NCBI GenBank assembly: GCA_964016885.1
Contig: OZ024764.1
Coordinates: 4,402,001 to 4,466,000, forward strand
Length of the DNA stretch: 64,000 bases
Source: Eledone cirrhosa
Taxonomy: Eukaryota
Reading direction: 5' to 3'
The notes beneath the pieces are model-generated. The model made no database searches and had not been told where the DNA came from. It saw only the letters and a list, made by a program, of their open reading frames with translations. Positions 13,650 to 14,801 of the stretch are shown here, piece by piece. The translations under genes were made by a program, and so were the position numbers. Every line of letters starts with the position of its first letter. The stretch's first letter is position 1.

Positions 13650-14287
13650 ATATCCAGTGCTTTTATCGAGAATGACACAGCTAGAGACTTATAGAATACT
13701 TAGCTGTGTACAGGAACTGGTTTGAAAGAGCGGTTGCCGGTCCGGCAGAAATTAGAAATTGGAATAAATGCTCTGAAATAGCGATATATTCCAGCAATGT
13801 GTATATATATATACATACAGATATTATATATATATATATATATATATCTGTCTGTACGTTTATATATTCCAGCAATGTGTATATATATATATATACATAC
13901 AGATATTGTATATATATATATATATATCTATGTCTATACGTTTATATATACCAGCAAGATATGTCAGCCAAATATGTAAACACCCCGCCCTCATAATATC
14001 TATCTATAACTGGTGCTGTATGAACAAAGTACTCGACCAAAATACAGTCCTTTACACCGAGGTACAGATACTCCCTTGCCCAATCCTATCGTCGGAATTA
14101 AACTAAACTTATGCCAACAATGACAGTAATCTTCACAATTTAATCATATAACATATATATGTAGCGAAATCTGTCCCCGCCTTGAACCCGATTAACGCAC
14201 TCGATATGCAAATTAGGCTGCTCAGCCGTTAATATGCATAAGGAAAGTATATACTTTCAGACGTTCAATCATCTGGCAGGAAGGTAT

Positions 14288-14330
14288 ACGTTGCTGACGA
14301 TAGCTAATAAGCTTGAAACTAGTACAGCGT
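14288..14330 (+). ncRNA. Minimal type I hammerhead ribozyme in a dispersed repeat (~14200-14450)
   Basis: ACGTTG-CTGACGA-T-AGC-TAATAA-GCT-T-GAAAC-TA-GTA-CAGCGT; palindromic ACTAGT; stem I extendable by aagg/cctt. Confidence 0.85.
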
Positions 14331-14801
14331 TCCTTTGTCAGTGTTGTACAAAAGAGCAACGATGGTTGCTAGACACTACGGCTTAATACGAGATGTTTGT
14401 TTACAAACACACCGAGCATTATAATAAATGTTCGGTGAATCCATACGTACATATATATATGTGTGCATGTATGTATATATTTATACATACTACGTGCTTC
14501 TGTATACATATATGTATGTATGTATACATACTTATATATATATATATATACTGCAACTTCGATTTTACTAACTTCCAGTCTTATATATATATATATAATA
14601 GATCAAGATAGAACCAGTCTGGTTAGACCATTACTCAACAGAGTACTTGATACTTGGGGTAGTAAAGTATGGTCATATCATAAATAGTCAGGACCTGACG
14701 GCTAAGCACTTACCATTTCAACAGCTAGATCCCGAGTCTGGAACTAGCTGTTGAAATGGCACGATCTCAGCCATTAGGCCCTGACTCTTTATAAGTCAAA
14801 T

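What the first reader, a model, noticed from the sequence alone, without database searches (positions are those of the whole stretch)
14200..14450. Two dispersed hammerhead copies show compensatory stem I changes
Seen: 14288-14330 (+) has stem I ACGTTG/CAGCGT, while its sister at 42752-42794 (-) has ATGATG/CATCAT. Both strands changed while pairing is kept. The core differs only at the free N7 position (CTGACGA vs CTGATGA), and stem II and the ACTAGT palindrome are identical. Inference: covariation points to selection on RNA structure in the source elements. Caveat: some changes are CpG-type transitions that could be paired by chance.
Basis: partly seen in the sequence, partly recalled or inferred. 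Interest (0 to 1): 0.8.

Follow-up and report, generated by a model that had tools for sequence, protein, structure and literature searches.

The report
Hammerhead retrozyme family with Penelope tails
These are two of over 11,000 copies of a ~425-base repeat whose hammerhead motif likely cuts its own RNA and which Penelope retrotransposons likely spread; of the two paired stem changes, one is no commoner than chance and the other likely arose once, so this is an ordinary member of a known class.

Summary
The sequences are as described, but this pair is weak evidence of selection. Both motifs belong to a ~420-433 bp tandem/dispersed repeat (11,877 exact copies of the 26-nt core) carrying a type I hammerhead with a palindromic stem III: a non-LTR retrozyme. 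Two stem I pairs differ. Pair 1.5 (C-G to U-A) fits double CpG decay: genome counts 1663/54/68/2, with 2.2 doubles expected by chance. The N7 change is CpG-type too. Pair 1.3 is a real subfamily difference (U·G 4217, A-U 1663, G·U 947, U·U 142), but the two-sided change maps to about one event. Better evidence lies 650 bp away: a second hammerhead family (310-bp tandem, 12828-13789) has the same fold, with 10 of 16 pairs changed on both sides and all cells paired. Insertions show the Penelope signature: (TA)n targets, inverted arms, two 3' ends ~60 nt apart (18 of 19 classifiable two-armed insertions carry one of each). An intact Neptune-like element in the genome has ends 61 nt apart and is a candidate mobiliser. 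Cleavage and expression are untested. New member of a known kind; interest 0.33.

The parts
14188..14550 (+). Family-1 retrozyme copy A: 5'-truncated solo unit ending at the SHORT 3' end (about 14540) in (TA)n
   Evidence: (hits start at 14188 and end at 14540-14550)
14288..14330 (+). Type I hammerhead A (U·G subfamily); predicted cut after A14324; distal stem I 14282-84/14332-34 beyond a UAU/U internal loop
   Evidence: exact 43-mer 4217 times in the genome
14318..14323 (+). Palindrome forming stem III, predicted to pair between two copies (double hammerhead)
   Evidence: Sequence; (double hammerhead -19.4 kcal/mol; one monomeric hammerhead fold -1.3)
42513..42938 (-). Family-1 retrozyme copy B, direct arm, near unit length, ending at the SHORT 3' end in (TA)n; CpG-decayed
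42752..42794 (-). Type I hammerhead B (A-U subfamily with three CpG transitions: both 1.5 bases and N7)
42939..42959 (+). Short (about 21 nt) inverted arm of copy B ending at the LONG 3' end in (TA)n: Penelope-type one-sided tail
   Evidence: (inverted match 42914-42965); read by eye
12828..13789 (-). Family-2 retrozyme: 3.1 identical 310-bp tandem units ending in (TA)n, each with a hammerhead of the same architecture
13607..13649 (-). Family-2 hammerhead (two further copies 310 and 620 bp lower); 10 of 16 pairs changed on both sides against family 1
   Evidence: weak Rfam HH9 match, 19.2 bits against gathering 52, E 0.13

Best explanation
Both sites are solo copies of a ~425-bp non-coding repeat with over 11,000 copies in this genome, a non-LTR retrozyme whose type I hammerhead is predicted to self-cleave as a dimer and which is likely copied into (TA)n tracts by a Penelope-like element's enzymes. 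Proposed cycle: (1) tandem arrays (shown) would be transcribed (inferred). (2) Neighbouring hammerheads would pair through the palindrome, since stem III cannot form well in a monomer, and cut after GUA to release unit-length RNA (predicted by folding; untested). (3) The monomer folds compactly (computed) and likely circularises, as in coral, mussel and axolotl retrozymes (inferred). (4) A Penelope RT/GIY-YIG protein likely nicks (TA)n and starts reverse transcription at either of two sites ~60 nt apart, giving truncated, tandem and inverted copies with a tail on one end only (end pattern shown; enzyme inferred). (5) Inserted copies accumulate CpG-type changes; copy B's U-A pair and N7 change fit that decay (shown by counts). 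Only pair 1.3 reflects source-element evolution.
For: Copy number 11,877 vs control 0; 36,899 motifs of the shared architecture. Tandem spacing 420-433 bp in 19 of 29 same-strand neighbours; 15 of 18 opposite-strand neighbours are divergent. Circular monomer z -7.7 and -8.2 (family 1), -5.5 (family 2), 40 shuffles each. Double hammerhead -19.4 (A), -17.4 (B), -15.3 (family 2, where it is the cofold minimum); one monomeric fold scores -1.3, -0.3, +2.1. Across families, 64 of 64 cells pair and 10 of 16 pairs change on both sides; 0 of 500 shuffles reach this; slid controls give 0-2 (four rows). Pair 1.3 is paired in 6827 of 6969 counted haplotypes (only four states counted). Ends: of 34 divergent two-armed insertions, 19 were classifiable and 18 carry one LONG and one SHORT end (binomial p 4e-5); the ends are 60 nt apart; (AT)4 follows 29 of 33 long and 37 of 41 short ends. 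An intact 775-aa RVT_1 + GIY-YIG frame occurs in many near-identical copies, with two ends 61 nt apart, one of each in 5 of 5 classifiable two-armed loci. Literature: PMC7229834, PMC4209133, 10.1101/2021.04.23.441226, PMC11167929, 10.64898/2026.07.22.740005.
Against: No cleavage or expression data. Only 1 of 9 predicted Xenopus retrozyme dimers cleaved in vitro (10.64898/2026.07.22.740005), and hammerhead cleavage was dispensable for PAc insertion in vitro (PMC11167929). For family 1 the cofold minimum is a rival duplex through the palindromic stem II, 1.3 kcal/mol better than the double hammerhead. U·U at pair 1.3 has 142 copies against about 29 expected from point mutation, so pairing there is not strict or subfamilies recombine. 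No blastn homology between either retrozyme unit and the PLE loci searched, nor between families 1 and 2 (best E 0.09), so the cross-family covariation rests on two families and may be convergence. Absence of common variants at the 11 core positions in run X1 is not significant alone (about 21 of 273 sites vary at 5% or more; about 0.85 expected). No Rfam hammerhead match for copy A. Target-site duplications could not be read inside (TA)n.
Confidence: 0.75

Rival explanations
1. The two stem I differences between these copies are both selected compensatory changes from two active source elements.
For: Both differing pairs keep pairing. Pair 1.3 states mark real subfamilies of thousands of copies. 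B's triple-changed 43-mer has one sister 400 kb away that shares private 5' changes, so it was copied at least once.
Against: T,A doubles 2 vs 2.2 expected; single-sided states, including the unpaired C·A (68), far outnumber doubles; 5 of 6 differences in B are CpG transitions; the two-sided change at 1.3 is about one event.
Confidence: 0.07
2. The repeat is the detached pseudo-LTR of an autonomous Penelope-like family not yet found; the copies are 5'-truncated PLE ends rather than an independent retrozyme.
For: All insertion hallmarks are those of PLEs; Xenopus retrozymes resemble pLTRs; PLE-like RT fragments lie within 1.5 kb of 4 loci.
Against: Arrays are head-to-tail ~425-bp units with no ORF between them. 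The intact PLE examined has a different, minimal hammerhead and no homology to the unit. The nearby RT fragments are mid-gene pieces or opposite in strand. Only one PLE family was examined.
Confidence: 0.12
3. The hammerhead is a structurally preserved but catalytically weak or silent motif; the family spreads through PLE recognition of its 3' hairpins, and arrays grow by DNA-level amplification.
For: U·U at the base of stem II; competing stem II duplex; 8 of 9 Xenopus dimers inactive; cleavage dispensable for PAc in vitro; U·U tolerated at pair 1.3.
Against: Core, cleavage triplet and every helix are kept across two families with 10 two-sided changes. The axolotl HHR_Amex2, with the same U·U mismatch, cleaves, better as a dimer (PMC7229834).
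Confidence: 0.2

Closest known systems
Metazoan non-LTR retrozymes (Cervera and de la Peña 2020, PMC7229834), notably axolotl HHR_Amex2/Rtz_353 and the Mytilus repeats
   Same: Type I hammerhead with 6-bp stem I in 150-450 bp tandem repeats, GC under 50% (36-39% here), thousands of copies, self-paired monomer, short palindromic stem III; U·U at the base of helix II as in HHR_Amex2; PLEs in the same genome.
   Different: Unit 420-433 bp (up to 516), at or above the upper end of the reported range; circRNA and cleavage not shown here; stem II is itself palindromic in family 1; no TSD readable; two 3' ends ~60 nt apart, a feature I did not see described in the parts read.
PLE pseudo-LTR hammerheads (Cervera and de la Peña 2014, PMC4209133)
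   Same: Dimer-type architecture with palindromic helix III; inverted copies 100-700 bp apart; mostly solo copies; families with covariation already reported there.
   Different: Stem I is 6 bp with a distal stem rather than 4-5 bp, stem II is short rather than 7-8 bp, and no ORF lies between the repeats.
Neptune/Nematis-type Penelope-like elements (Craig et al., 10.1101/2021.04.23.441226) and PAc (PMC11167929)
   Same: 5' truncation, partial tandems, inverted upstream copy, tail on one end only, microsatellite targets. The intact element here has RT, a CX4CxxC linker and GIY-YIG.
   Different: The retrozyme encodes nothing; its tail is ~60 nt rather than the usual 30-40 (family 2: about 35); clade of the intact element assigned by linker motif only, no tree.
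Rfam Hammerhead_HH9 (RF02275)
   Same: Family 2 matches the full model length weakly (19.2 bits, E 0.13).
   Different: Far below gathering (52); copy A has no match at E<=10.

Membership tests
Type I hammerhead ribozyme | Core CUGANGA...GAAA...UH around three helices, stem I open | tested here: met
   Sequence; 16 pairs, 64 of 64 cells paired over four rows. Consensus recalled and matched to PMC4209133.
Type I hammerhead ribozyme | Covariation supporting the helices | tested here: met
   Met between families 1 and 2 (10 two-sided changes; homology outside the motif not shown). Within family 1 only pair 1.3 counts; pair 1.5 fails.
Type I hammerhead ribozyme | Site-specific self-cleavage | not testable with these tools
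   Folding energies only.
Rfam hammerhead families (clan CL00010) | Score at or above gathering | tested here: not met
   no hit for copy A; family 2 19.2 vs 52 bits.
Non-LTR retrozyme | Type I hammerhead in each unit of 150-450 bp tandem repeats | tested here: met
   Spacing 420-433 in 19 of 29 neighbours; arrays in L019, L078, L093, L162; the two window copies themselves are solo.
Non-LTR retrozyme | Non-coding, no LTR/PBS/PPT, GC under 50% | tested here: inconclusive
   GC 36-39%; no long frame in the window copies; units are head-to-tail, not LTR-flanked; PBS/PPT not searched.
Non-LTR retrozyme | Highly self-paired monomer | tested here: met
   67-69% paired, z -7.7 and -8.2; (TA)n-like palindromes inflate this.
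Non-LTR retrozyme | Expressed as linear and circular unit-length RNA | not testable with these tools
   No RNA run was available to lay.
Non-LTR retrozyme | TSDs longer than 4 bp when present | tested here: inconclusive
   Ends lie in (TA)n; no TSD readable.
PLE-mobilised element | 5' truncation, tandem and inverted arms, tail on one end only, microsatellite target | tested here: met
   (18 of 19 classifiable of 34 found).
Autonomous PLE or its pLTR | Unit flanks an RT + GIY-YIG ORF | tested here: not met
   No ORF in units or arrays; no homology to the one intact PLE family examined; other PLE families not examined.

The most novel reading that the evidence does not exclude
Tail length is a fingerprint that pairs a retrozyme with its mobiliser without any shared sequence: family 1 (tail 60 nt) is moved in trans by the young Neptune-like element of this genome (tail 61 nt), and family 2 (tail about 35 nt) by another PLE. 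That would be direct genomic evidence for PLE trans-mobilisation of retrozymes and would define a structure-recognised, two-site RT start signal that can be tested in vitro.
Probability: 0.35. Interest if true: 0.6.

Novelty: new member of a known kind. Interest (0 to 1): 0.33.

Why it matters
As flagged, it is a cautionary case: a C-G to U-A change at a CpG site pairs automatically, and the genome counts match chance. Hammerheads with covarying families in PLE-related repeats are in print. What has value: about 37,000 motifs in two families, not found described for this group of animals in my searches (the host looks octopod from recall, molluscan by protein relatives), and the one-sided 60-nt tail shared in length with an intact PLE. 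That gives a concrete enzyme/RNA pair for the open question of how animal retrozymes are mobilised.

Tried and rejected
Rfam: no hammerhead at gathering; at E<=10 only family 2 weakly, the other rows being (TA)n-driven miRNA noise or weak chance hits. Single-strand folding of the 44-mers: not significant, and the minimum is not the hammerhead. No RNA holder listed: no evidence either way. Three other organisms hold parts of the repeat in 9-14 contigs at low depth: not interpreted; X1 may be the source sample. Segmental duplication as the reason for B's sister copy: no shared long flank; conversion or re-copying left open. A shared terminal motif between retrozyme and PLE (idea): rejected, since the look-alike motif is internal in the PLE. 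First end classifier left 61 of 104 unclassified and was replaced; several 'short' rows are mis-anchored in internal TA runs. One search kept 69 of 88 rows (the filter fixed the 5' side of pairs 1.1-1.2 and dropped some intact copies). One search kept 59 of 130 rows plus the two window copies; bootstrap not converged. Pfam on four PLE-like fragments: one sub-cutoff RT hit. Protein search for the host's name: named relatives are bivalves or bivalve-symbiont assemblies, no octopod name among 120 listed of 471. Earlier scan notes: none. A·G and G·G states at pair 1.3, and the C,G count with N7=T, were not counted genome-wide. R-scape was not available.

Full report
OBSERVATION. The two 43-nt motifs are at the stated places with the stated letters. 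They lie in a longer homology, 14194-14550 against 42888-42513, 85% over 379 columns. Reading outward from the core, stem I pairs are G-C, U-A, U·G, G-C, C-G, A-U in copy A and G-C, U-A, A-U, G-C, U-A, A-U in copy B. Two pairs differ: 1.3 and 1.5. Hammerhead numbering and the core consensus are recalled and agree with PMC4209133 (parts 1-2 of 4 read).

THE FAMILY. The window is G000:C25:4402001-4466000 in a 3.0-Gb genome. The 26-nt stretch from G8 to the cleavage triplet occurs 11,877 times, the reversed control 0 times. A degenerate pattern for the shared architecture finds 36,899; the first 100 rows are all family 1 (with loop variants) or a second family. Units repeat head to tail at 420-433 bp in 19 of 29 same-strand neighbours, 466-516 in 5, and more in 5; 15 of 18 opposite-strand neighbours are divergent. 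The window copies are solo.

TEST OF PAIR 1.5. CpG is its own reverse complement, so C>T on one stem strand and G>A on the other re-pair without selection. Within the A-U subfamily with N7=C, exact counts are C,G 1663, T,G 54, C,A 68, T,A 2. Independence predicts 2.2; odds ratio 0.91, p=1.0. With N7=T, one search lists 2 exact T,A copies, 1 more with a palindrome change, 4 C,A and 3 T,G; the C,G count for that class was not taken. The two exact copies share private 5' changes but no long flank, so they are not independent. Copy B differs from the majority of 7 close copies at 6 of 253 sites; 5 are transitions at CpG sites, of which there are 26. In the 59-copy alignment, transitions run at 3.7% at CpG sites and 1.1% elsewhere. 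This pair, and the N7 change, are best read as decay after insertion.

TEST OF PAIR 1.3. Exact counts are U·G 4217, A-U 1663, G·U 947, U·U 142; other states were not counted. In a C1 sample picked by the core alone, 69 of 88 rows gave TG 37, AT 19, GT 7, TT 3, CG 1, AG 1, TA 1. On a tree of 61 rows (59 of 130 sampled plus A and B; rough supports) the 3' G sits in one clade whose sister is a U·U copy, while the 5' base flips between A and G several times opposite U. This fits a constraint to pair, but it is one two-sided event (chance about 3 in 9) plus transitions. U·U is about five times commoner than point mutation predicts (142 vs 29), so an unpaired source existed or subfamilies recombine. 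In run X1, variants at 5% or more inside the motif fall at both 1.3 bases, N7, loop II and H17 (A>U, allowed); none at the 11 core positions, which alone is not significant.

THE BETTER EVIDENCE. A 310-bp array at 12828-13789 (3.1 identical units) carries on the minus strand a hammerhead with the same layout: distal stem, UAU/U loop, 6-bp stem I, U·U-closed stem II, 6-nt palindrome, GUA. On four rows (A, B, family 2, a loop variant of family 1) all 64 cells pair and 10 of 16 pairs change on both sides; no shuffle of 500 reaches this; slid controls give 0-2. Limits: two families; I noticed family 2 among 16 regex hits partly because it pairs; the families share no other homology. For family 2 the double hammerhead is the cofold minimum (-15.3); for A and B it is 1.3 kcal/mol above a stem II duplex; a monomeric hammerhead fold scores -1.3, -0.3 and +2.1. 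Circular monomers fold far better than shuffles (z -5.5 to -8.2).

HOW IT MOVES. Of 104 terminal copies (9 more cut by locus ends), 41 end at a SHORT site, 33 at a LONG site, 11 were binned 'between' (10 by eye LONG ends of a variant), 12 end earlier or diverge, 7 run on; (AT)4 follows 37 of 41 and 29 of 33. The sites are 60 nt apart, blurred a few bases by AT microhomology. Of 34 divergent two-armed insertions among all loci held, 19 were classifiable and 18 have one LONG and one SHORT end. Copy B shows the same by eye, with a 21-nt inverted arm. [quoted passage not shown] A search with a PLE fragment found 150 scored matches of 16,552 candidates, many with a 775-aa stop-free frame holding RVT_1 (27.6 bits, just under cutoff) and GIY-YIG (above cutoff), a CX4CxxC linker as in Neptune/Nematis, and its own minimal hammerhead. 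Of 20 ends followed, 4 run on, 1 is cut, 9 stop at 156, 5 at 217 and 1 at 212 nt from its hammerhead; 5 of 5 classifiable two-armed loci have one of each. Family 2's ends are about 35 nt apart, one of each in 3 of 3 insertions by eye. There is no sequence homology between this PLE and either retrozyme. PLE-type mobilisation I put at about 0.85, this particular family at about 0.35.

COMPARISON. It fits non-LTR retrozymes (PMC7229834, parts 2-3 of 6 and passages), including the U·U at the base of helix II of axolotl HHR_Amex2, which cleaves weakly alone and well as a dimer. PLE origin and mobilisation were proposed in 10.64898/2026.07.22.740005 (parts 1 and 3 of 5 and passages), which found only 1 of 9 dimers active. 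It works like a dimeric PLE-type hammerhead; it is filed as a retrozyme on structure and arrangement, with cleavage and circRNA untested and Rfam thresholds not met.

NOVELTY. Named relatives of the PLE protein are bivalves or their symbiont assemblies; my impression of an octopod rests on recalled SINE and RTE features and comes from no call. Searches for octopus + hammerhead ribozyme (5 papers, 4 listed, listing only apart from Craig et al.), retrozyme + cephalopod (1 listed), octopus/Penelope/genome/microsatellite (listing), retrozyme/Penelope/tail/Neptune (15 of 20 listed) and the Octopus vulgaris repeat paper PMC13282606 (passages; 0 uses of hammerhead, ribozyme or retrozyme) showed no description. 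The library lacks most subscription papers, and preprint supplements were not seen.

VERDICT. Observation confirmed; interpretation partly supported; new member of a known kind; interest 0.33.

Noticed in passing
window 12828-13789 (-): Second retrozyme family: three identical hammerheads in a perfect 310-bp array, the only place in the window where a cis dimer could form; looks very young.
   Followed up: yes
window 4310-4380 (-) and 4430-4500 (+): Inverted pair of minimal-type hammerhead motifs (long stem II, extra base after A9) ending in TA repeats; likely a pLTR remnant of another PLE family; a relative appears in L005.
   Followed up: partly
window 60959 (+) and 43224 (-): Further hammerhead-core hits with good stem II but weak or unclear stem I; the first has a look-alike in L011.
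   Followed up: partly
L185:721-3045 (G000:C1), L210: Young intact Neptune-like PLE, 4211-bp unit, 775-aa frame, own minimal hammerhead about 385 nt after the stop, also with U·U at the base of stem II.
   Followed up: yes
L006:447, L009:635, L011:2945, L003:2889: Other hammerhead-like motifs in flanks, suggesting several more ribozyme-bearing families in this genome.
   Followed up: no
window 31223-32683 (+); 20978-22155 (+): RT frames, one with a PHD finger: LINE-like retrotransposon copies, the second broken.
   Followed up: partly
window 59543-60153 (-): Weak DDE_3 transposase match below cutoff.
   Followed up: no
window 10495-10552 (-): tRNA-like match (31.2 bits), probably a SINE head.
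   Followed up: no
L007:2257-3147, L061:2206-3024, L070:2083-2943: PLE-like RT fragments without Pfam hit, possibly Naiad-type (motifs recalled), beside family-1 copies; probably a shared (TA)n target.
   Followed up: partly
window 543-1400 and 33967-34506; 6499-6918 and 35065-36168: 61-bp and 65-bp minisatellites each present at two distant places in the window.
   Followed up: no
L051-L059 (G000:C19, C20): Near-identical two-armed family-1 insertions at 150-200 kb spacing, apparently carried in large duplicated blocks.
   Followed up: no
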